A stretch of 35,812 nucleotides of DNA from a virus (taxonomy: Duplodnaviria > Heunggongvirae > Uroviricota > Caudoviricetes): positions 1-35,812 of the IMG/VR virus record IMGVR_UViG_2693429554_000020; one strand, 5' to 3'. Position 1 is the stretch's first letter. Every line of letters starts with the position of its first letter. The translations under genes were made by a program, and so were the position numbers. This document shows positions 19,846-34,444 of this stretch, in pieces. Under the pieces are notes generated by a model. That model was not told where the DNA came from. It saw only the letters and a program-made list of their open reading frames with translations, and did no database searches.

Positions 19846-20898
19846 TTATTTCCCCACCAGTTCACTTACCTCTTTCACCGTCTGATTAAACCGCTCTGAC
19901 TCAAGTTCAACACCTAACGCCCGACGCCCCAGCGCCATTGCTGCTTTTATTGTGGAACCGGATCCCATAAAGAAATCAGCAACCAGATCACCAGGTCGAC
20001 TACTGGCATTGATTATTTGCCGGAGCATATCCGCCGGTTTCTCGCACGGATGTTTACCCGGGTAGAACTGAACGGGCTTATGCGTCCAGACATCGGTATA
20101 AGGCACGGAGACTGATACGGAGAAATAGCGCCGGAGAGATTTAAACTCATCCAGCAATTCAGAATATTTGCGATTCAGTGAATCATAAGATGCCACCAGC
20201 TGGTGGTGTGGTTGTTCCAGTTGTTGTTCCTGAAACTTCTCTGCCGCTATACGGGAAAACAGTGCCTGTAACTTCCGATAGTCAGCCTCATTCGGCAACT
20301 GCCACTGACTGGCACCAAACCAGTGGGAAACCATATTTTTCTTACCTGTGGCTTCGGCAATTTGTTTTGCCGTTATACCCAGTTCGGCACGAGCATCCCT
20401 GAAATACGATATCAGCGGTGCCATTATGTGCTGTTTGAGTTCCCTTTCTTTTGCCGCATAGCCGTCACTTTTGCCGCGATATGGCCCCTGGTAATGTTCA
20501 GCAAACAGAACGCGCTCTGTGGCAGGAAAATATGCGCGCAGACTTTCTTTATTACACCCATTCCAACGTCCGGACGGCTTCGCCCAGATGATATGGTTAA
20601 GCACGTTGAAACGTTCACGCATCATGATCTCAATATCAGATGCCAGGCGATGCCCACAGAACAGGTAAAGGCTTCCGGCAGGTTTTAACACCCGCCAGAA
20701 CTGGGCCAGACAGTGGTCCAGCCACTTAAGGTAATCTTCGTCCCCTTTCCACTGATTGTCCCAACCGTTAGGTTTCACCTTGAAGTAAGGCGGATCGGTA
20801 ACAATCAGGTCAATGGAATCATCAGGCAGGGACTGAATAAAATGCAGGCAATCAGCGTTGATTAAATCAACACTGTTTATTTTTACAGTATTTTTCAT
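19846..20898 (-). CDS. DNA methyltransferase, N6-adenine/N4-cytosine type (DPPY motif), orphan
   Basis: 350-aa ORF with IVTDPPY catalytic motif and C-terminal SAM-binding-like FFMGSGST; no adjacent restriction endonuclease gene. Confidence 0.8.
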   Translation of the reverse strand: MKNTVKINSVDLINADCLHFIQSLPDDSIDLIVTDPPYFKVKPNGWDNQWKGDEDYLKWLDHCLAQFWRVLKPAGSLYLFCGHRLASDIEIMMRERFNVLNHIIWAKPSGRWNGCNKESLRAYFPATERVLFAEHYQGPYRGKSDGYAAKERELKQHIMAPLISYFRDARAELGITAKQIAEATGKKNMVSHWFGASQWQLPNEADYRKLQALFSRIAAEKFQEQQLEQPHHQLVASYDSLNRKYSELLDEFKSLRRYFSVSVSVPYTDVWTHKPVQFYPGKHPCEKPADMLRQIINASSRPGDLVADFFMGSGSTIKAAMALGRRALGVELESERFNQTVKEVSELVGK

Positions 20899-21398: not shown

Positions 21399-21516
21399 AA
21401 GTTGTGTGGCGAAGTAACCACTCTTAACACGATATAATACTTTTTGCGTACGCGTTAGGATTTTTATAAACTATGCGTCCCCATTCTCGCTAACTTTAGT
21501 CGGTCCTGGAATACAC

Positions 21517-22443
21517 ATGAAAGTTAGAAGCATAGGATTTACAATAAATAACAATAACAAAAATATTAATACCGTTGACGTAATGAATGCTTTTATCAAC
21601 GCATCAAACAGAGAACACAGTCGCACAGACTATACTCGTAAAATTCTCATTTCGGATGTGAATGATTTCTATTATGGATTAGTTGTCACATTCAGAAACC
21701 AAAAAAAGAACTGTAAGTCGCAATTTGTTGATGGTAAATTCCAGCTTAAAATTGAAGATCTTCAAGGAAGTGACAAACTTGCTAATTTCAACTTTTTCTT
21801 AATTAAAAAATCTAATCTTTCTGGTCTCTATATGTATCACCACGGGTCATGCAGTCTGAACACTCTCTTTTCTCATTTAGAAACAATAAGTAATGAATTT
21901 ATCAGAAATCAAAATAAAGAAGAAATAAAAAAACTTGGTGATAAACCAAAACAAAAAGAAGTAACTGCAATAAATAAAAAATACAAAGAAAGACTGACTT
22001 TCAGCCTTATGACAAATAAAAACAACATTCAGAGTGTTTTATGTCAATTCAAAGAGATTAAAAGCACAAGCTTTAAATTTAATTATATAGATTTTAAAGG
22101 TGGACCAATGACTGCGCTTGAACAATTTGTTAACACCACCACAATAGATATGAATTTTAATTCTAGCGACAGAACAAAAGTGCAACAACTATCTCAGAAT
22201 CTTTCAAATATTTATAATTCTATGAGTGGAGTTGCTAAAGCACAGGTTATTGCAGTAAACCATGCAGGAATAGAAAAAACCATTGATTTTATGAACTGCC
22301 CTGTTTTTTTTGAAACATACGATTTCGATATAATTGCCGATAAAGTCAATGGATTGACAAACGATAATTATACAACAAACCCTGTTTTTGATATGATAAA
22401 AGAAGAAATGCTGAACGGGACGAATAAAAATGCCTTTATATGA
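21517..22443 (+). CDS. Hypothetical protein, AT-rich cassette gene 1 (no family recognised)
   Basis: 308-aa ORF in roughly 30% GC DNA with Asn-rich N-terminus (TINNNNKNINT), opposite strand to the flanking phage genes, 14-nt overlap with the next ORF. Confidence 0.6.
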   Translation: MKVRSIGFTINNNNKNINTVDVMNAFINASNREHSRTDYTRKILISDVNDFYYGLVVTFRNQKKNCKSQFVDGKFQLKIEDLQGSDKLANFNFFLIKKSNLSGLYMYHHGSCSLNTLFSHLETISNEFIRNQNKEEIKKLGDKPKQKEVTAINKKYKERLTFSLMTNKNNIQSVLCQFKEIKSTSFKFNYIDFKGGPMTALEQFVNTTTIDMNFNSSDRTKVQQLSQNLSNIYNSMSGVAKAQVIAVNHAGIEKTIDFMNCPVFFETYDFDIIADKVNGLTNDNYTTNPVFDMIKEEMLNGTNKNAFI

Positions 22444-22978
22444 ATGGCTAATAAATAAAAGGTTGAGGTATCAGTACCTTACACTGCTTGCATTCTCGAT
22501 CCTGGCATTGCTTGCACTTTACCTATTGTACAGAAACACACCTAAAGTAAGTGTTAACTTTTTTGATTTTTATCATAAAAACTTACGAGGCTATCTCTTC
22601 TCCGGTTTTATTTCCGTGGGCTCATTTTTATTGAGCCTGCATACCTTTGTCATAATAAATTTACGCGATAAGGTTTTTGCAACTCAGGAATATAAGGAAA
22701 TTTATAGCATTGCCACTGGTATACCTATTGACAAAATCAATGATAGTGCACTTTATAAACCTTTAGACAATTTATCCTCATTTATTAATACATCAATATT
22801 ATGTTCTATCACAACAGCAATTGCACAATTCACTATTGGACTTTCAACTAATTTATATGCATGCTTATTTTGCGTATGGCTTGCAATACTAACGGTATTT
22901 CTTTTATTACATTGCCTCATCATAATCAGACAAAATATTAAAATTTTATTAAAGCAACAGAGAAAAAAAGGGGGGTAA
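22430..22978 (+). CDS. Hypothetical membrane protein, AT-rich cassette gene 2 (about four TM helices)
   Basis: 182-aa ORF with four hydrophobic segments, translationally coupled to gene 1 (ATG inside ...ATGCCTTTATATGA...), basic C-terminus. Confidence 0.6.
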   Translation: MPLYEWLINKRLRYQYLTLLAFSILALLALYLLYRNTPKVSVNFFDFYHKNLRGYLFSGFISVGSFLLSLHTFVIINLRDKVFATQEYKEIYSIATGIPIDKINDSALYKPLDNLSSFINTSILCSITTAIAQFTIGLSTNLYACLFCVWLAILTVFLLLHCLIIIRQNIKILLKQQRKKGG

Positions 22979-22985
22979 TTCCCCC
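22970..22985. terminator. Bidirectional terminator hairpin between convergent cassette gene 2 and Q
   Basis: GGGGGG-TAATT-CCCCC flanked by A8 on the plus side (T-run on minus strand), occupying the 12 bp between the two stop codons. Confidence 0.6.
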
Positions 22986-22990
22986 TAATA

Positions 22991-23332
22991 TTACAACATT
23001 GAAAGCACACCATCCAGAAAACCAAGAGCTGTTTGCAACTCTTTTCTTATTGTCCCATCAGAACACTTCTGCTTCTTTGCAATAGTTCTTAGTGAGATGC
23101 CGATAACAAAATGAGCAATAACCAACTCATACTCTTCGGGCTTATATTTCCGCAATCGCGCAACACAGCTGTCAATCATGATTCCTTCATCATCATCGCA
23201 TTGTTGGCGTGTTTTCTTTCCATGAGGTAGTAAACCTTTAAACCCTGCAGCAACAGGCTGCCAGTCCACACCACTGTTATCTGCTGCAGCCCATGCACCC
23301 CAGCGGTCCAATACTTCATACATATCACGCAT
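22991..23332 (-). CDS. Late-gene antiterminator Q (QuuD-like)
   Basis: MRDMYEVLDRWGAWAA...GFKGLL...CDDDE...CSDG matches the Q-family pattern as recalled; start at ATG 23332 with GGAGAAAG SD (track ORF begins at 23347). Confidence 0.7.
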   Translation of the reverse strand: MRDMYEVLDRWGAWAAADNSGVDWQPVAAGFKGLLPHGKKTRQQCDDDEGIMIDSCVARLRKYKPEEYELVIAHFVIGISLRTIAKKQKCSDGTIRKELQTALGFLDGVLSML

Positions 23333-23349: not shown

Positions 23350-24345
23350 TCAGGCCAGCACGCCAATTGCCAGTGCACGATCGATAAAACGAAATATCAG
23401 CTCCAGCTGGGAGCCATACTTCTCTTCAAATGCCACGGTATCCGCATGCAGCTCGTCGTGATGCTTTCTGCACAAAGGCAACACAAAGAGGTCATGCGCT
23501 TTTGTAGCCATTCCACCCTGACCGTGACCTATCAGGTGGTGGGGATCATCAGCAGGTTTTCCACAACATGCGCACGGCTGCGTCTTAACCCATCGCGTGT
23601 ACTTTTCATTAACCCAGCGGCGACGTTTGGGGCGTAACATAAAAGACTCCGGCGACTCCGGATCCACTTTCAGCGCCAGCACCTTTTTCGCCTTATCCTG
23701 GATGATGCTGGTGGCAGGAACCGAAGGCACAAGGTCACTTTCCCGGGTAACAGACGGCACAACAGGCTTCGGTAATCTCAGTGCCTTACGGGCTGCACTT
23801 TCCGGTAAGGCATCCGCCAGATCATTACGAATCAGCCACCAGCACAGTTCCGGCATTGTCACAACATGACTGTCATCAAAACCGAGATCCCGACGCACAA
23901 CAGACAACACCCAGCGGGCACTGTTATCCGTTGCCATTGATTCCAGCCGTTCCGTGAACTGATCGCGCAGCTGGTTATCGCAGTGCCAGCACAAACGGAT
24001 TGCGCCCGGAGCGTGTCGCATTGTTGTCATGTTCTCGCTGTGCCAGTCGGAATGAGGCCACTGGCAGCCTTTTTCACGAAGTAACCAGCTTTCAAGACAT
24101 TCCACGCCACCAGCACGACGGATCACTGCCTCATTGCGGAACACGGCCCGAACGGCAGGATCATCCGCCAGCGGTTGTGATGCCGCCGGAACGGCACCAC
24201 TGGCGAAAGATGAATAACGTTCCGGCTCAGGCTCCAGCAAGACACGCCCCTGCATAAACAAGGGCATCAGCTCTGAACCGGGTCTGAACAATACGATCCC
24301 CATACGCGGGGCAATTTCAGGGGTCAGTAGTGCTCTCACGGTCAC
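23350..24345 (-). CDS. Conserved lambdoid nin-region protein (DUF968/YdfU-like) with C-terminal Cys/His zinc motif
   Basis: 331-aa ORF between KilA-N and Q; C-terminus CACCGKPADDPHHLIGHG...CRKHHDELH. Family name from memory; start codon uncertain. Confidence 0.5.
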   Translation of the reverse strand: MTVRALLTPEIAPRMGIVLFRPGSELMPLFMQGRVLLEPEPERYSSFASGAVPAASQPLADDPAVRAVFRNEAVIRRAGGVECLESWLLREKGCQWPHSDWHSENMTTMRHAPGAIRLCWHCDNQLRDQFTERLESMATDNSARWVLSVVRRDLGFDDSHVVTMPELCWWLIRNDLADALPESAARKALRLPKPVVPSVTRESDLVPSVPATSIIQDKAKKVLALKVDPESPESFMLRPKRRRWVNEKYTRWVKTQPCACCGKPADDPHHLIGHGQGGMATKAHDLFVLPLCRKHHDELHADTVAFEEKYGSQLELIFRFIDRALAIGVLA

Positions 24346-27906: not shown

Positions 27907-28272
27907 TTATACTACCTCCTCAATTTCAGGAAGCGATACGAACACCCCACCAGCAGACTGTGCGACAGCATCCGCAATGTAGTGAGTGCCAGCTGCGCGC
28001 TGTAAAACCATTGCCCATCCCAGCGGGAAAATCTGATCGCCATCGGCACGAAGGCGGTTAAATAATGCGTTCTCTGTTACATCCAGCCAGTCAGCAGCTT
28101 CAGCGTAACCACCCGGCAACGCCGCGATAGTTTTTCTGACAGCTTTCACGTACCACTCAGGCTGTTTTTCTACTTTCCAGTGATGCTTACCCACGGTTAA
28201 CTCCTCGTTTCTGTGGTTACGTTTACGCAACTGAACCGCTAACTTTTGAATAGCACTCTGGTAATCCATCAT
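27907..28272 (-). CDS. CII-analogue regulatory protein (YdaT-like)
   Basis: Follows the Cro-like gene as in Rac-type immunity regions; start at internal Met (MMDYQ...) to limit overlap. Confidence 0.45.
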   Translation of the reverse strand: MMDYQSAIQKLAVQLRKRNHRNEELTVGKHHWKVEKQPEWYVKAVRKTIAALPGGYAEAADWLDVTENALFNRLRADGDQIFPLGWAMVLQRAAGTHYIADAVAQSAGGVFVSLPEIEEVV

Positions 28273-28486
28273 TTGGATTTGGATAAATATCAGGACGCAG
28301 CTCATGGGGGGTTACGGACCAGTTCCCCAGCTCACAAAGTTGTAAAACTCGTTCCGACGGGACTTGATTGTTAATTACCCAATTAGCGACAGATTGAGTA
28401 GATTTAAAACCAAAGCGACGAGCTACTTCAGATAAAGACTTTCCCGCATCCTTTACTGCTTTCTCGGTGTAGTTTTGAGATGACAT
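28223..28486 (-). CDS. Cro-like HTH repressor (YdaS-family)
   Basis: HTH segment SLSEVARRFGFKSTQSVANWV...PSERVLQLCELGNWSVTPHELRPD; divergent from the CI-like gene; AGGAG SD 7 nt upstream. Confidence 0.6.
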   Translation of the reverse strand: MSSQNYTEKAVKDAGKSLSEVARRFGFKSTQSVANWVINNQVPSERVLQLCELGNWSVTPHELRPDIYPNPNDGLPECYSKVSGSVA

Positions 28487-28602
28487 ATCTTTCTCCTCTG
28501 AAATCCAGAGGGGATAATGCTACTTAAAGTAGCGAATTGCAACTACTTAAAATAGAAATGACGAGCGTATGTGATGTGAGTAATCTTCTACCTATGGTAG
28601 AA
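28487..28602. promoter_or_regulatory. OR-like operator/promoter region (three CTAC-N5-GTAG palindromes, candidate pR and pRM)
   Basis: Operators at 28520-28532 (CTACTTAAAGTAG), 28543-28555 (CTACTTAAAATAG) and 28588-28600 (CTACCTATGGTAG, centred on the cI ATG). Candidate pR on minus: TTGCAA-17-CATTAT. Candidate pRM on plus: ATGACG-17-TAATCT, giving a near-leaderless cI mRNA. Confidence 0.5.
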
Positions 28603-29298
28603 GAACAGAAGTATCCAGATTTCGCCAAGAGACTAAACGAGTTAATGACAAACAAGGGAATTTCTGTCACCCAACTCAAAAGTCTTGTTGGCGTTACATA
28701 TGAAATGGCGCGGCGATACACAATCGGCGCAGCGAAGCCTCGTGCCTCTGTCATGAATAAACTTGCGTTGGCTCTGGGGGTATCGGCTTCATATTTAGAA
28801 TATGGTGTTGGCGAGAGAGAAGGATGTAAGGAAATGGCAAGCATCCCCAATCCAACAAAACCCGACGTATACAGGATAGAAGTTTTAGATCTTAGCGTTA
28901 GCGCAGGACCTGGAACCTATATGCTTTCAGACTATGTTGATGTGCTCTACGCCATTGAGTTCACAACAGAACATGCCCGTTCTCTTTTCGGTAACCGTTC
29001 TCAGGATGATATTAAGGTTATGACTGTAAATGGCGATAGTATGTCCCCTACTCTCGTTTCCGGAGATCGACTGTTTGTCGACATTTCTGTTCGTCACTTC
29101 CAGACTGATGGAATTTACTCTTTCGTTTACGGTAAGACTTTTCATGTTAAACGTCTTCAAATGCAAGGTGACAAGCTAGCCGTTCTTTCGGATAACCCTG
29201 CCTATGAGAAATGGTACATCGATGAAAAATCGCAGGATCAGCTTTATGTAATGGGCAAGGCGTTGATTCATGAGTCAATAAAATACAATCGGTTATAG
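28594..29298 (+). CDS. CI-type prophage repressor (HTH plus S24 LexA-like peptidase domain)
   Basis: N-terminal XRE-type HTH and C-terminal GDSMSPT (Ser) with downstream HVKRL (Lys). Start at ATG 28594 since the longer ORF (28537) would cover operator sites. Confidence 0.8.
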   Translation: MVEEQKYPDFAKRLNELMTNKGISVTQLKSLVGVTYEMARRYTIGAAKPRASVMNKLALALGVSASYLEYGVGEREGCKEMASIPNPTKPDVYRIEVLDLSVSAGPGTYMLSDYVDVLYAIEFTTEHARSLFGNRSQDDIKVMTVNGDSMSPTLVSGDRLFVDISVRHFQTDGIYSFVYGKTFHVKRLQMQGDKLAVLSDNPAYEKWYIDEKSQDQLYVMGKALIHESIKYNRL

Positions 29299-29313
29299 TT
29301 CTAAGGGCATATA

Positions 29314-29661
29314 ATGGCTAGTGAGCAGGGATTCGAAAAGATTAACATGGATATGTTGGTCTCTTATTTCTCAGAAAAGAATATATATCTAAAATGTACA
29401 CTATGTGGACACGACAGATTGACTGTGCCTCAAGTCAGCGCGAATGTGGGCATGCCATGTACTATGAAACTTGGTAGTTATGTGAATGTTTTTACTGAAA
29501 AAAGCATTTATTCTGATACTGCTAACCAGTATTACTTTTCACTAATATGCAACAATTGTGGAAATGAAATTCATATAAATGCGTTTTCAGTTTTGAACTG
29601 GGTAAATGAAAAGTTCCCAGCAAAAACGGAAGATGAAAAAAATGCCGACGCCGCAAAATAA
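29314..29661 (+). CDS. Zinc-ribbon protein co-transcribed with cI (hypothetical)
   Basis: 115-aa ORF 16 bp after the cI stop with AAGGG SD; CxxC pairs (CTLCGH..., CNNCGN); AT-rich. Confidence 0.5.
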   Translation: MASEQGFEKINMDMLVSYFSEKNIYLKCTLCGHDRLTVPQVSANVGMPCTMKLGSYVNVFTEKSIYSDTANQYYFSLICNNCGNEIHINAFSVLNWVNEKFPAKTEDEKNADAAK

Positions 29662-29728
29662 TGTAGTACCATTTAATAGTGAACTTCCCACAATTAGAAG
29701 ACACGGTGGAGATGGCGGAGGTGATGAC

Positions 29729-30013
29729 ATGCTTGAAGCCCGAGTCGCTAAGTTAGAAGCGAATGTTGAGGATATAAAAACAAATCTCGCAGAGATGAGA
29801 GCTGACATTCGTGATTTGCGAAACGCTCTCTCCGACACCCGACGCGATGTCGCTGTTATCCTTCAAAAACAAATAGATATAGATGAAAAGTTGTCAAAAA
29901 AACCTAGCCTAAGTGAAGTCAACAGCGCTATTTCATCAGCCGTAAATAAACAGATCGCATGGACTGTTGCAACAGGCTTGGCGATTTTAGGTCTCGCCAA
30001 ATTTATGTTTTGA
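29729..30013 (+). CDS. Coiled-coil protein with C-terminal transmembrane anchor (hypothetical)
   Basis: Track ORF 29606..30013; start at ATG 29729 preceded by GGAGGTGA SD (7-nt spacing). Heptad-like LEARVAKLEANVEDIKTNLAEM, then IAWTVATGLAILGLAKFMF. Confidence 0.45.
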   Translation: MLEARVAKLEANVEDIKTNLAEMRADIRDLRNALSDTRRDVAVILQKQIDIDEKLSKKPSLSEVNSAISSAVNKQIAWTVATGLAILGLAKFMF

Positions 30014-30319
30014 TAAGTTTTTGACTATGACCTGCCCTAGTTTTCTTACTATCGAGGCTAAATCACACAATCCATTGAGTAGTAAATTCCCTACCGTTTT
30101 ACACTTAGCCTCCAAAAACTCAACAATACTCTCATGATTGACTTCTCCCCACTTGATGATTAACTAGATCACATACTGATCTCAGCCACAATGAAACAAT
30201 CCATCACGTTCTACAACTCAGCTAACTTCACAATATAATTTTTTGATCATAGCCCCCAAAATATTTTACCTGTAAATTCAATGAATTAATTTCAAAATGC
30301 GTTTTTATGCCCTTAGCTT

Positions 30320-30361
30320 CTACTTTTTGTAGTTGATTTTTGCAACTTTAAGTAGCAATAT
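30320..30361 (+). promoter_or_regulatory. OL-like operators and candidate pL
   Basis: CTACTTTTTGTAG (30320-30332) and CAACTTTAAGTAG (30343-30355), with the same 23-bp centre spacing as the OR pair; TTGATT-17-CAATAT on the plus strand overlaps them. Confidence 0.45.
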
Positions 30362-30633
30362 CATTTTACCGACAACGAACAGGCAGGACGCCCACGAAGT
30401 AGCCGCCTGGGGCATATGAAGTCCAGGATGATTCGTTAGCAACAAAAAAGCGCCCTACCGGACGCTTCGCTCTTTAAAAATCAGTAACCCTCACTTTGGG
30501 CCTGGATCTGGTGGCCTGGGACGAGGTGGAATATGAAAAGGCTCTATTGGTCGACTCATTATCCAATCCTATTATGTCTCATTTCTTCGGTTTCGGTGGT
30601 TTCGGCTTCGGAGGTACATGTCCGTGAACTGGA

Positions 30634-31128
30634 TTATGCTTGTTGGTCATCATTAATATCCGTTAGTTCATTCTCTAGAGGTAGATCTCCCGCACACCAA
30701 GCAATAAATTTTTCTTTGGTTGTTAGATCGTACTTAGTTGGAACACCAGCAAAAATGCAGGCCCGAATGAAAGCCGCTCGTTCAAGTGATTTCCATGGAT
30801 TACTATCGGTATCTTGGATTTTTAAATACCTAGCTTGCAACTGATCTTCAGAAAGAGTATCAGACTCAATCAGCAGTCTTTTGTAATGCCTCGCTTGTTC
30901 TTTAGACATCCCAGCCTCCTGGCCGAACTGATAGACCAACTGAAGAACCGAAAGTACGGCAACAAACAAACCGAAAATAAATAAATTACTGTACGGGGCG
31001 AAAACTGAAAAACCGAGAACGATTAACATCAACGTTATTAATTTATCAATACGAGTTAACAACGTGTAATTCATCTTCTCCAATACATAAGAGTAGTGAA
31101 TATAAAATTTATAATCGTCTCTGGTCAT
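30634..31128 (-). CDS. Hypothetical membrane protein (two N-terminal TM helices), AT-rich
   Basis: 164-aa ORF in AT-rich DNA, antisense to the expected pL transcript; conflicts with plus ORF 30533..30844, which has a strong SD. Confidence 0.4.
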   Translation of the reverse strand: MTRDDYKFYIHYSYVLEKMNYTLLTRIDKLITLMLIVLGFSVFAPYSNLFIFGLFVAVLSVLQLVYQFGQEAGMSKEQARHYKRLLIESDTLSEDQLQARYLKIQDTDSNPWKSLERAAFIRACIFAGVPTKYDLTTKEKFIAWCAGDLPLENELTDINDDQQA

Positions 31129-32964: not shown

Positions 32965-33314
32965 TGGAGCCATACAGCCTCACACTCGATGAGGCCTGTC
33001 ATTTTCTCAAGATATCCAGACCGACTGCCATTAACTGGATACGCACAGGGCGTCTTCAGGCAACACGCAAAGATCCCACTAAGAATAAATCTCCTTACCT
33101 CACAACACGACAAGCCTGCATTGCGGCTCTTCAGTCTCCGCTGCATACTGTCCAGGTGAGCGCGGGTGATGGCATAACAGAGGAAAGAAAATGTCACTCT
33201 TCCGCAGAGGTGAAATATGGTACGCCAGTTTCACATTGCCGAACGGTAAAAGATTTAAACAGTCTCTTGGAACAAAGGACAAAAGGCAGGCGACAGAACT
33301 CCATGACAAGCTAA
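32964..33314 (+). CDS. Excisionase-like HTH protein (AlpA/Xis-type)
   Basis: [33 protein letters not shown] motif; GAGGTG SD 5 nt upstream; 3' end overlaps the integrase start by about 124 nt. Confidence 0.5.
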
Positions 33315-34354
33315 AGGCTGAAGCATGGCGGGTCAGCAAACTTGGTGAAATACCTGATATAACGTTCGAGGAAGCGTGTGTCAGGTGGCTTGAAGAGAAA
33401 GCACATAAAAAATCACTGGACGATGACAAAAGCCGGATCGGATTCTGGCTTCAACATTTCGCAGGAATGCAACTAAGAGACATTACTGAATCAAAAATTT
33501 ATTCAGCAATGCAGAAAATGACGAACCGGCGTCATGAGGAAAACTGGAAACTCAGGGCAGAAGCATGCAGAAAAAAAGGGAAACCTGTTCCAGAATACAC
33601 GCCAAAACCAGCGTCCGTTGCAACGAAGGCTACGCATCTTTCATTTATAAAGGCCCTACTAAGAGCCGCAGAGCGTGAATGGAAAATGCTGGATAAGGCA
33701 CCAATTATTAAAGTGCCTCAACCAAAGAATAAACGGATCCGCTGGCTGGAGCCCCATGAAGCACAAAGGCTGATTGATGAATGTCCGGAGCCATTAAAGT
33801 CTGTTGTTGAATTTGCACTGGCAACAGGCTTAAGACGCTCGAACATCATCAACCTTGAATGGCAACAAATAGATATGCAGCGCCGGGTGGCATGGATAAA
33901 CCCGGAAGAGAGTAAATCAAACCGCGCAATTGGCGTTGCGCTGAATGATACTGCATGTCGCGTATTGAAAAAACAAATCGGGAATCATCACCGTTGGGTA
34001 TTTGTGTACAAGGAAAGCTGTACCAAACCAGACGGAACGAAAGCGCCAACAGTAAGGAAGATGCGGTATGACGCAAACACAGCCTGGAAAGCGGCGCTGA
34101 GACGGGCTGGTATTGATGATTTCAGATTTCACGACTTGAGACACACCTGGGCAAGTTGGCTGGTTCAAGCCGGAGTCCCGTTGTCAGTGTTACAGGAAAT
34201 GGGAGGCTGGGAGTCTATCGAAATGGTTCGTCGATATGCTCACCTTGCACCTAATCACCTTACCGAACACGCACGGCAAATAGACTCGATCCTGAACCCA
34301 TCGGTCCCAAATTTGTCCCAGTCAAAAAATAAGGAAGGTACTAATGATGTGTAA
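33191..34354 (+). CDS. int: Tyrosine integrase
   Basis: 387-aa ORF with arm-binding-like N-terminus ([15 protein letters not shown]) and C-terminal [11 protein letters not shown]...VRRYAHL catalytic motif; ends 15 bp from the tRNA 3' end. Confidence 0.85.
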
Positions 34355-34368
34355 CTTATTGATTTAAA

Positions 34369-34444
34369 TGGTGCCGATAATAGGAGTCGAACCTACGACC
34401 TTCGCATTACGAATGCGCTGCTCTACCAACTGAGCTATATCGGC
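34369..34444 (-). tRNA. thrW: tRNA-Thr (anticodon CGU)
   Basis: 76-nt cloverleaf read on the minus strand: GCCGATATAGCTCAGTTGGTAGAGCAGCGCATTCGTAATGCGAAGGTCGTAGGTTCGACTCCTATTATCGGCACCA; anticodon loop TTCGTAA. Confidence 0.9.

What the first reader, a model, noticed from the sequence alone, without database searches (positions are those of the whole stretch)
29314..30013. Passenger genes co-transcribed with cI at the rexAB-equivalent position
Directly downstream of the CI-type repressor lie a 115-aa zinc-ribbon protein and a 94-aa coiled-coil protein with a C-terminal TM anchor, both with good SD sequences and AT-rich. In lambda this position holds rexA-rexB, expressed in the lysogen to exclude other phages. 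Genes here are expected to be on in the prophage state, so they are good superinfection-exclusion or host-modulation candidates.
Basis: partly seen in the sequence, partly recalled or inferred. Interest (0 to 1): 0.6.

Follow-up and report, generated by a model that had tools for sequence, protein, structure and literature searches.

The report
Two-gene cassette replacing rexAB beside cI
Right after the prophage repressor gene, where phage lambda keeps its rexAB exclusion genes, this E. coli prophage carries a swappable, uncharacterised gene pair (a small zinc-ribbon protein plus a membrane-anchored coiled-coil protein apparently made in a long and a short form), which is a good untested candidate for a new prophage-encoded anti-phage module.

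Summary
ORF115 (29314-29661, two invariant CxxC pairs) and a coiled-coil ORF with a C-terminal hydrophobic anchor (ends 30013) start 15 nt after cI, on the same strand. GC is 39% against 51% for the window.

They lie inside the immunity region, between OR (28513-28557) and OL/pL (30318-30362). Related prophages with the same cI carry other cargo, and homology breaks at 29302 and 30319. In phage HK544 a family member replaces lambda rexA-rexB base for base.

Two corrections:
- The genes are one conserved module (about 70 distinct loci). A variable small gene 1, of at least three unrelated families, is translationally coupled to the conserved membrane protein.
- The 94-aa ORF is only the short form. 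The frame upstream is open in 67/67 loci and under purifying selection, giving a 123-126 aa long form. A GGAGG 7 nt before the internal ATG is fixed by codon choice in 40/51 loci, so two isoforms are likely.

Neither protein matches Pfam, PADLOC, NCBIfam, PDB, RexA or RexB. Published O157:H7 data show the CP-933V homologues expressed without induction.

Function is untested. My best guess is a RexAB-like sensor plus membrane-effector exclusion or abortive-infection module.

The parts
28513..28557 (.). OR operator/promoter region between cro (28223-28486, -) and cI
   Evidence: It forms a 45-nt inverted repeat (80% complementary) with 30318-30362. It contains the operator-like palindromes CTACTTAAAGTAG and CTACTTAAAATAG.
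28594..29298 (+). cI-type repressor (HTH_3 + Peptidase_S24)
   Evidence: Pfam HTH_3 2e-5 and S24 8e-17. The start follows the NCBI annotation of the identical gene in L001.
29303..30318 (.). Exchangeable cargo slot between the cI stop codon and OL
   Evidence: Homology to prophage L002 (same cI, ParA-like ATPase as cargo) ends at 29302 and resumes at 30319. GC is 37.9%.
29314..29661 (+). Gene 1: 115-aa zinc-ribbon protein (family 'FAM115', phrog_4293)
29633..30013 (+). Gene 2, long form (126 aa; possibly 123 aa from ATG 29642), overlapping the end of gene 1
   Evidence: The frame upstream of the internal ATG is open for at least 20 codons in 67/67 distinct loci. pN/pS is mostly 0.1-0.5 in the part not overlapped by gene 1. 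An in-frame ATG lies within about 20 nt of the gene-1 stop in nearly all loci. The family is phrog_3556.
29705..29728 (+). Gly-rich linker GGDGGGDD
   Evidence: Conserved in almost all homologues ahead of the M/L-EARVAKLE helix start.
29717..29721 (+). Internal Shine-Dalgarno GGAGG, 7 nt before ATG 29729
   Evidence: GGA occupies codon -4 in 40/51 distinct loci, against 23% GGA among background Gly codons (binomial P 8e-17; the loci are related to one another, so this is an indication rather than an exact probability). The GGAGG-to-ATG spacing is 7 nt in those 40 loci.
29729..30013 (+). Gene 2, short form (94 aa): coiled coil plus C-terminal anchor
   Evidence: ATG conserved in 50/51 loci. AF2 helices at 30-88 and 93-125 of the 126-aa form.
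29954..30010 (+). C-terminal hydrophobic anchor IAWTVATGLAILGLAKFMF
   Evidence: Translation. 96 of 142 representative homologues have a C-terminal hydrophobic segment.
30014..30317 (+). AT-rich, C-over-G spacer; no intrinsic terminator
   Evidence: No hairpin followed by a U-tract. C:G = 76:31, which suggests Rho-dependent termination (inference). Conserved only with this exact cassette.
30318..30362 (.). OL operators with pL (TTGATT-17-CAATAT, + strand)
   Evidence: Inverted repeat of OR. Coordinates checked. Assignment of pL is by analogy with lambda (inference).
30371..30482 (+). Conserved leader of the pL transcript; contains a - strand terminator hairpin at 30447-30468
   Evidence: 94-100% identical stretches in SfV, SfII, SfIV, ST64B, phiNP and others. 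In SfV it lies just after cI and its terminator. Terminator. No Rfam match.

Best explanation
This is a horizontally exchanged two-gene cassette in the cargo slot of the immunity region, between the cI stop codon and OL/pL. It is probably transcribed with cI in the lysogen. Gene 1 encodes a small cytoplasmic zinc-ribbon protein. Gene 2 is translationally coupled to gene 1 and encodes a C-terminally anchored coiled-coil inner-membrane protein. Gene 2 appears to yield two in-frame products. The long form (123-126 aa) carries a disordered N-terminal peptide and a glycine linker. The short form (94 aa) starts at a conserved internal SD-ATG. Proposed mechanism (inferred): gene 1 is the interchangeable specificity or sensor subunit, acting on or through the N-terminal peptide of the long form. 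The coiled-coil and anchor part oligomerises in the membrane and is the effector. The short form modulates it, as Esc does for SieB or an antiholin does for a holin. When a superinfecting phage triggers the system, the membrane is compromised or entry is blocked. That is RexA/RexB-type logic carried out by unrelated proteins. Shown: position, cassette boundaries, module conservation, the two start signals, and expression of homologues in lysogens. Inferred: co-transcription in this prophage, the existence of both isoforms, docking of gene 1 on the N-terminal peptide, and the anti-phage role.
For: - Position: OR and OL are inverted repeats that flank cI, ORF115 and ORF2.
- Passenger status: the cassette boundaries fall at 29302 and 30319, with a ParA-like ATPase as alternative cargo in L002.
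- Natural swap: in HK544, homology to lambda stops 35 nt after cI and resumes at the rexB stop codon, with a family member in between.
- Module conservation: a gene 1 lies directly upstream of, or overlaps, gene 2 in essentially all of about 70 distinct loci. Gene 1 belongs to at least three unrelated families.
- Genomic context: at least 32 of 63 distinct upstream neighbours are HTH repressors and 22 of 63 carry S24. The others are tail genes, which is another classic moron site.
- Transcription-unit end: 45 of 72 loci have an intrinsic terminator right after gene 2.
- Two starts: the coupling ATG sits at the gene-1 stop, and the internal GGAGG-7nt-ATG is fixed by synonymous codon choice.
- The N-terminal extension is coding.
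- Mosaicism: P0076 has the same cI, ORF115 and N-terminal peptide but a different coil and anchor, with the break at 29745.
- Rarity: 17 of 5426 complete E. coli genomes. Low GC.
Against: - No experiment or homology links either protein to phage exclusion. There are no significant hits in PADLOC, Pfam or NCBIfam.
- Distant pairs sit in housekeeping neighbourhoods, not prophages: rplU-rpmA-[pair]-prmA in a Deferribacteraceae MAG, and next to dnaX in a Thermodesulfobacteriota MAG.
- In this window no terminator follows gene 2 and no transcription data exist.
- Most of the membrane protein faces the cytoplasm, which suits an abortive-infection effector better than a periplasmic block of DNA entry.
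- The short isoform is inferred from sequence only. In some distant homologues the Met is Leu, Val or Thr.
- The N-terminal peptides of proteins paired with different gene-1 families share a loose hydrophobic motif, so they might bind a common host target rather than gene 1.
Confidence: 0.5

Rival explanations
1. This is a toxin-antitoxin or addiction pair. Gene 2 is a small membrane toxin and gene 1 its upstream, translationally coupled antidote. The pair stabilises the prophage or any replicon that carries it, without a dedicated anti-phage role.
For: The arrangement is small, overlapping genes with the variable partner upstream. Partners are mixed and matched, and recombination occurs at the start of the conserved helix. 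Pairs also occur in non-phage chromosomal contexts.
Against: There are no hits to any toxin-antitoxin family. Placement is strongly biased to lysogen-expressed prophage slots. Many toxin-antitoxin pairs also act as abortive-infection systems, so this rival overlaps the main model.
Confidence: 0.15
2. This is lysogenic conversion of host physiology. A tail-anchored coiled-coil protein, resembling ElaB/YqjD in layout, alters membrane or stress physiology, and gene 1 is a cofactor. It would have no phage-specific trigger.
Against: No DUF883/ElaB-type Pfam hit appeared among 69 homologues scanned. The rapid turnover of gene 1 and of the N-terminal peptide, with pN/pS at or above 1 in one group, looks more like an arms race than housekeeping.
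Confidence: 0.15
3. The pair serves the phage's own life cycle. It could be an XhlA-like lysis accessory or a membrane-tethered regulator of induction or immunity.
For: Similarity to XhlA and to PHROG 'hemolysin' and 'holin/anti-holin' families is weak. The dual-start layout recalls holin/antiholin genes.
Against: The pair is never found next to holin or endolysin genes in the loci examined; it lies by cI or among tail genes. It is dispensable: prophages with the same cI lack it. The window protein gives no XhlA hit at E <= 1.
Confidence: 0.1
4. These are spurious or decaying ORFs in a non-coding spacer.
For: Low GC and the absence of any annotated function.
Against: The pair is conserved across genera and even phyla. 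Cysteines are invariant, selection is purifying, and start signals are conserved. Homologues are detected as proteins.
Confidence: 0.02

Closest known systems
Phage lambda rexA-rexB
   Same: Both occupy the same slot between cI and OL/pL on the cI strand. In HK544 a family member replaces rexAB base for base. Both are two genes, one a soluble protein and one a membrane protein. Both are expressed in the lysogen: RexAB by established knowledge (reviewed in PMC11436027), and the CP-933V homologues by the published data.
   Different: There is no sequence similarity (BLASTP E = 3.0 and 0.52). RexB is a polytopic membrane protein (established knowledge), whereas gene 2 has a single C-terminal anchor and a long cytoplasmic coiled coil. 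Gene 1 is 115 aa against 279 aa for RexA. Gene 1 is interchangeable among unrelated families, and gene 2 has two start sites.
P22/lambda SieB with its in-frame inhibitor Esc, and dual-start holin/antiholin genes such as lambda S107/S105
   Same: One gene appears to give a long and a short in-frame product from two initiation sites. The protein is membrane-associated, prophage-encoded and placed in an exclusion context.
   Different: There is no homology; no SieB or holin family was hit. The two starts are 29-32 codons apart in this window and 20-80 codons apart across the family. Production of two isoforms is inferred from codon conservation, not shown. The SieB/Esc and S107/S105 facts come from my own knowledge (Ranade and Poteete 1993; Blasi and Young).
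XhlA (PF10779), PBSX-type lysis accessory / 'hemolysin'
   Same: Both are about 90 aa, with an N-terminal coiled coil and a C-terminal transmembrane segment. One homologue, P0024, is named 'Hemolysin XhlA' in UniRef.
   Different: The window protein gives no XhlA hit at E <= 1. Only 6 of 69 homologues give weak hits, the best at E = 3e-4. The pair is not in a lysis cassette. It has the Gly linker, an N-terminal peptide and a coupled partner gene.
Morons such as HK97 gp15 (superinfection exclusion; Cumby et al. 2012, cited in PMC11436027)
   Same: Both are small, low-GC, lysogen-expressed membrane-protein units. Both are inserted among tail genes or beside the repressor, are present or absent between related phages, and often end in their own terminator.
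   Different: The sequence is unrelated. This is a two-gene unit. In this window it appears to ride on the cI transcript and lacks its own terminator.

Membership tests
lambda RexA/RexB | Located between cI and OL/pL on the cI strand | tested here: met
   OR/OL inverted repeat. Cassette boundaries. HK544-lambda comparison.
lambda RexA/RexB | Sequence homology to RexA and RexB | tested here: not met
   BLASTP E = 3.0 and 0.52. No significant Pfam or PADLOC hit of any kind.
lambda RexA/RexB | Polytopic membrane channel subunit plus a cytoplasmic activator of about 280 aa | tested here: not met
   Gene 2 has one C-terminal hydrophobic segment and a long helix. Gene 1 is 115 aa.
lambda RexA/RexB | Abortive exclusion of T4 rII and other phages with membrane depolarisation | not testable with these tools
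   This needs plaque and membrane-potential assays.
Moron (autonomous passenger unit in a phage genome) | Presence or absence between otherwise homologous phages, with atypical base composition | tested here: met
Moron (autonomous passenger unit in a phage genome) | Own promoter and terminator | tested here: inconclusive
   A terminator follows gene 2 in 45 of 72 homologous loci but not in this window. No convincing internal promoter was found. Here the pair probably depends on the cI promoter.
Moron (autonomous passenger unit in a phage genome) | Expressed from the repressed prophage | not testable with these tools
XhlA (PF10779) | Pfam match above the gathering score | tested here: not met
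   No hit at E <= 1 for the window protein. Six of 69 homologues give weak hits.
XhlA (PF10779) | Sits in a lysis cassette with holin and endolysin | tested here: not met
   Neighbours are cI-type repressors or tail genes.
Dual-start (long/short isoform) membrane proteins of the SieB/Esc or holin/antiholin type | Two functional in-frame initiation sites | tested here: inconclusive
   Sequence signals for both sites are conserved, and the extension is coding. The proteins themselves were not observed.
Dual-start (long/short isoform) membrane proteins of the SieB/Esc or holin/antiholin type | Homology to SieB or to a holin family | tested here: not met
   No such hit in Pfam or PHROGs. The best PHROG holin/anti-holin hit has E = 0.011.
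Type II toxin-antitoxin | Homology to a known toxin or antitoxin family | tested here: not met
Type II toxin-antitoxin | Toxicity of gene 2 neutralised by gene 1 | not testable with these tools
   This needs expression experiments.

The most novel reading that the evidence does not exclude
The pair represents a widespread, undescribed family of prophage two-component exclusion or abortive-infection systems. A tail-anchored coiled-coil effector is made as long and short isoforms from one gene. It is controlled by interchangeable, unrelated small sensor proteins encoded by the coupled upstream gene. The family is a functional alternative to RexAB in lambdoid phages, including HK544 and the Stx1 prophages of E. 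coli O157:H7.
Probability: 0.35. Interest if true: 0.8.

Novelty: new variant of a known kind. Interest (0 to 1): 0.6.

Why it matters
The slot next to the repressor gene is where temperate phages keep genes that act in the lysogen. A second, unrelated occupant of the exact rexAB position gives a clean natural comparison, lambda against HK544, for how prophages protect their hosts.

The family has about 190 clusters at 50% identity with E <= 1e-10. It occurs in pathogens, including the Stx1 prophages of O157:H7, Salmonella and Klebsiella, and has no annotation. Its design is unusual: a modular partner gene and two conserved start sites in one small membrane-protein gene.

If it is a defence system, it adds a new effector type and a directly testable case of isoform-controlled activity. 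If it is not, it is still an abundant lysogen-expressed membrane protein of unknown role in important pathogens.

Tried and rejected
- **Family libraries.** Pfam, PHROGs, PADLOC and NCBIfam scans of both proteins gave only unnamed PHROG families and sub-threshold coiled-coil or zinc-ribbon noise. A Pfam scan of 69 ORF2 homologues gave generic coiled-coil hits and no consistent family.
- **Solved structures by sequence.** Nothing better than E = 0.035.
- **Homologue search for ORF115.** The word-indexed search found only 4 and then 11 clusters. Most family members had to be recovered locally from the fetched loci with an iterated HMM.
- **Terminator after ORF2 in the window.** None found.
- **Rfam.** Nothing on the window or on 29900-30700 except a tRNA. 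A fold of the conserved pL leader was no better than shuffles (z = 0.42).
- **Literature.** Searches by accession or PHROG id, and for tail-anchored or zinc-ribbon prophage defence, found nothing relevant. The Fc02 'overlapping exclusion genes' paper concerns an unrelated Mu-like system.
- **Rejected idea 1: the 94-aa form is the only product.** The upstream frame is open and constrained.
- **Rejected idea 2: the long form is the only product.** The internal SD is fixed by synonymous codon choice.

Full report
**Setting.** The window is a lambdoid E. coli prophage of the CPS-53/e14 gene pool; related copies carry yfdN-yfdT and ymfL homologues. An integrase lies at 33191-34354 and a tRNA at 34372-34444. 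The immunity region reads, right to left on the - strand: a cro-like gene (28223-28486), cII (27907-28305) and a replication gene. On the + strand it reads: cI (28594-29298, HTH_3 plus Peptidase_S24), ORF115 and ORF2.

**Observation.**
- ORF115 (29314-29661) starts 15 nt after the cI stop codon, behind AAGGG.
- Its four cysteines (C28, C31, C79, C82) are the only invariant columns in an alignment of 19 homologues that fall to 14% identity.
- ORF2 ends at 30013. The 94-aa version starts at ATG 29729, with GGAGG 7 nt upstream.
- AlphaFold2 on a 53-sequence alignment gives a disordered N-terminus, a confident helix over residues 30-88, a break at KKPS, and a second helix over 93-125 that ends in IAWTVATGLAILGLAKFMF.
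- GC is 39.1%, against 51.4% for the window.

**Position.** A 45-nt stretch at 28513-28557, between cro and cI, is 80% complementary to 30318-30362. Both stretches contain CTACTTnnnGTAG-type palindromes and a TTGnnn-17-CAwTAT promoter facing outward. These are OR/pR and OL/pL, so cI, ORF115 and ORF2 lie inside the immunity region exactly as cI-rexA-rexB do in lambda.

**Passenger status.**
- A prophage with a 93%-identical cI region (L002) carries a 358-aa ParA-like ATPase instead. Homology to the window stops at 29302, 4 nt after the cI stop, and resumes at 30319, the first base of OL.
- SfV has nothing but a terminator in this slot.
- The cassette occurs in 17 of 5426 complete E. coli genomes.
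- Phage HK544 is 99% identical to lambda from cII through cI up to lambda 37192. It becomes identical again at 35826, the rexB stop codon, and continues through OL/pL and N. In between, in place of rexA-rexB, it carries a 93-aa gene and a 183-aa homologue of ORF2 (BLASTP E = 1e-20).

**The genes form one module.** I fetched 91 loci encoding ORF2 relatives.
- In essentially every distinct locus a small + strand gene of 60-170 aa lies directly upstream, overlapping ORF2 or within about 30 nt of it.
- This gene 1 belongs to at least three unrelated families: the zinc-ribbon family of ORF115 (38 loci, recovered with an iterated HMM), a family of about 140 aa (22 loci), and several proteins of about 95 aa that include ECs2991. 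None has a Pfam assignment.
- Of 63 distinct genes upstream of the pair, 32 have HTH_3 and 22 have Peptidase_S24, so they are repressors.
- The others are tail genes: DUF6246, a baseplate hub, an SLT-domain protein, Mu-type DNA_circ_N, gpJ and a tailspike. That is the other classic site for morons.
- 45 of 72 loci have a strong intrinsic terminator just after ORF2.
- An exhaustive profile search found 189 representatives (50% identity clusters) at E <= 1e-10. They share one plan: a variable N-terminus, a Gly-rich stretch, M/L-EARVAKLESDVEHIK, a coiled coil of variable length, and a C-terminal hydrophobic segment.

**ORF2 is longer than 94 aa and probably has two products.**
- Upstream of the conserved Met, the ORF2 frame is open for at least 20 codons in 67 of 67 distinct loci and for at least 30 codons in 62.
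- In the part not overlapped by gene 1, pN/pS is 0.1-0.5 in most comparable pairs. One group is at or above 1.
- An in-frame ATG lies within about 20 nt of the gene-1 stop codon in nearly all loci, and 17 loci have an 8-nt overlap. The long form is therefore translated, coupled to gene 1. In the window it starts at 29633 or 29642, giving 126 or 123 aa.
- The glycine codon four positions before the internal ATG is GGA in 40 of 51 distinct loci, and GGG in 8. GGA makes up 23% of Gly codons in neighbouring genes and is a minority at the other Gly positions of the linker. This places GGAGG exactly 7 nt before the ATG.
- Synonymous, position-specific conservation of this kind points to a working internal ribosome-binding site, and so to a short form that lacks the N-terminal peptide.
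- In some distant homologues the Met is Leu, Val or Thr, so the short form may not be universal.

**Mosaic structure of gene 2.** P0076 sits behind a related cI and ORF115 and has the same N-terminal peptide, but a different coil and anchor. DNA homology to the window ends at 29745, 17 nt into the conserved helix.

**What the proteins are.** Neither protein matches any curated family or any solved structure by sequence. The ORF115 model (pLDDT 71) has no fold relative. There is no similarity to RexA or RexB. Similarity to XhlA and to PHROG 'hemolysin' or 'holin' families is weak and inconsistent.

**Expression.** I could not test the window itself. The 15-nt gap, the shared strand and the absence of a terminator make read-through from cI the default expectation. 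No intrinsic terminator follows ORF2. The 304-nt spacer is C-rich and G-poor (76 C against 31 G), which fits Rho-dependent termination (inference). For the homologous pair in CP-933V/Sp15, published data from uninduced O157:H7 cultures show the following:
- ECs2991 protein detected (PMC3936929).

**Mechanism.** I propose a RexAB-like division of labour carried out by unrelated parts.
- Gene 1 is the exchangeable specificity or sensor subunit.
- The long form of gene 2 links gene 1, or a host target, to the membrane through its N-terminal peptide and flexible Gly linker.
- The coiled coil and anchor form the oligomeric effector.
- The short form tunes it.
- Evidence for this reading: placement in lysogen-expressed slots, rapid turnover of gene 1 and of the N-terminal peptide, and the dual-start design. 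By my own knowledge, dual starts are otherwise known from SieB/Esc and from holin/antiholin pairs.
- Evidence against: no functional data exist. Some distant pairs sit in housekeeping contexts, for example rplU-rpmA-[pair]-prmA. A loose N-terminal hydrophobic motif is shared across partners. A toxin-antitoxin or host-physiology role therefore remains open.

**Verdict.** The positional and passenger reading is strongly supported and can now be stated literally, because the family replaces rexAB in a lambda-immunity phage. The functional reading remains a well-motivated hypothesis. The family is uncharacterised, so I class it as a new variant of a known kind of system, with moderate to high interest.

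Noticed in passing
window 21400-23200: A second very AT-rich island (29-34% GC) holds two overlapping + strand ORFs: 21517-22443 (308 aa) and 22430-22978 (182 aa). They run antisense to the flanking - strand genes, a DNA methylase at 19846-20898 and a DUF968/HNH gene at 23350-24345. Neither has a Pfam or PADLOC hit. It looks like another passenger cassette.
   Followed up: partly
window 30634-31128 (- strand): A 164-aa ORF (phrog_6315, no Pfam hit) has a central hydrophobic region. It lies antisense to the pL transcript just after its leader, and its own terminator (30468-30447) sits inside that leader. In TW14425 (L001) this position instead holds an 'ECs1072 family' gene, so it is a second variable slot.
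   Followed up: partly
window 30371-30482: An element of about 110 nt immediately downstream of pL is 94-100% conserved in SfV, SfII, SfIV, ST64B, phiNP and phages of Yersinia, Pantoea and Klebsiella, regardless of immunity type. It has no Rfam match and no unusually stable fold. It may be a conserved leader or antitermination site.
   Followed up: partly
L002 4068-5144 (E. coli 10034292-3 and others): The alternative cargo in the same cI-OL slot is a 358-aa ParA/MinD-like ATPase with a deviant N-terminal P-loop. Only the P-loop region weakly matches a PADLOC candidate (PDC-M28B).
   Followed up: partly
L013 4556-5207; L010 5651-6186: Distant copies of the pair (zinc-ribbon gene plus Gly-linker coiled-coil anchor gene) sit in housekeeping neighbourhoods. 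One lies between rplU-rpmA and prmA in a Deferribacteraceae MAG. The other is next to dnaX in a Thermodesulfobacteriota MAG. The module is therefore not restricted to prophages.
   Followed up: partly
L097 (HK544) 1895-2828 versus lambda 35827-37191: HK544 carries the lambda immunity region (99% identical cII-cro-cI, 98% identical OL/pL), with rexA-rexB cleanly replaced by the module. This gives a ready-made isogenic comparison for experiments.
   Followed up: yes
ORF2 homologues (P0085-P0088, L071, L077, L085, L091): The coiled-coil length varies from about 30 to over 150 residues through internal tandem repeats, for example 11-residue LSNKIQSVESS units, while the helix start and the anchor are kept. 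The spacer length between the head and the membrane seems to be free to vary.
   Followed up: no
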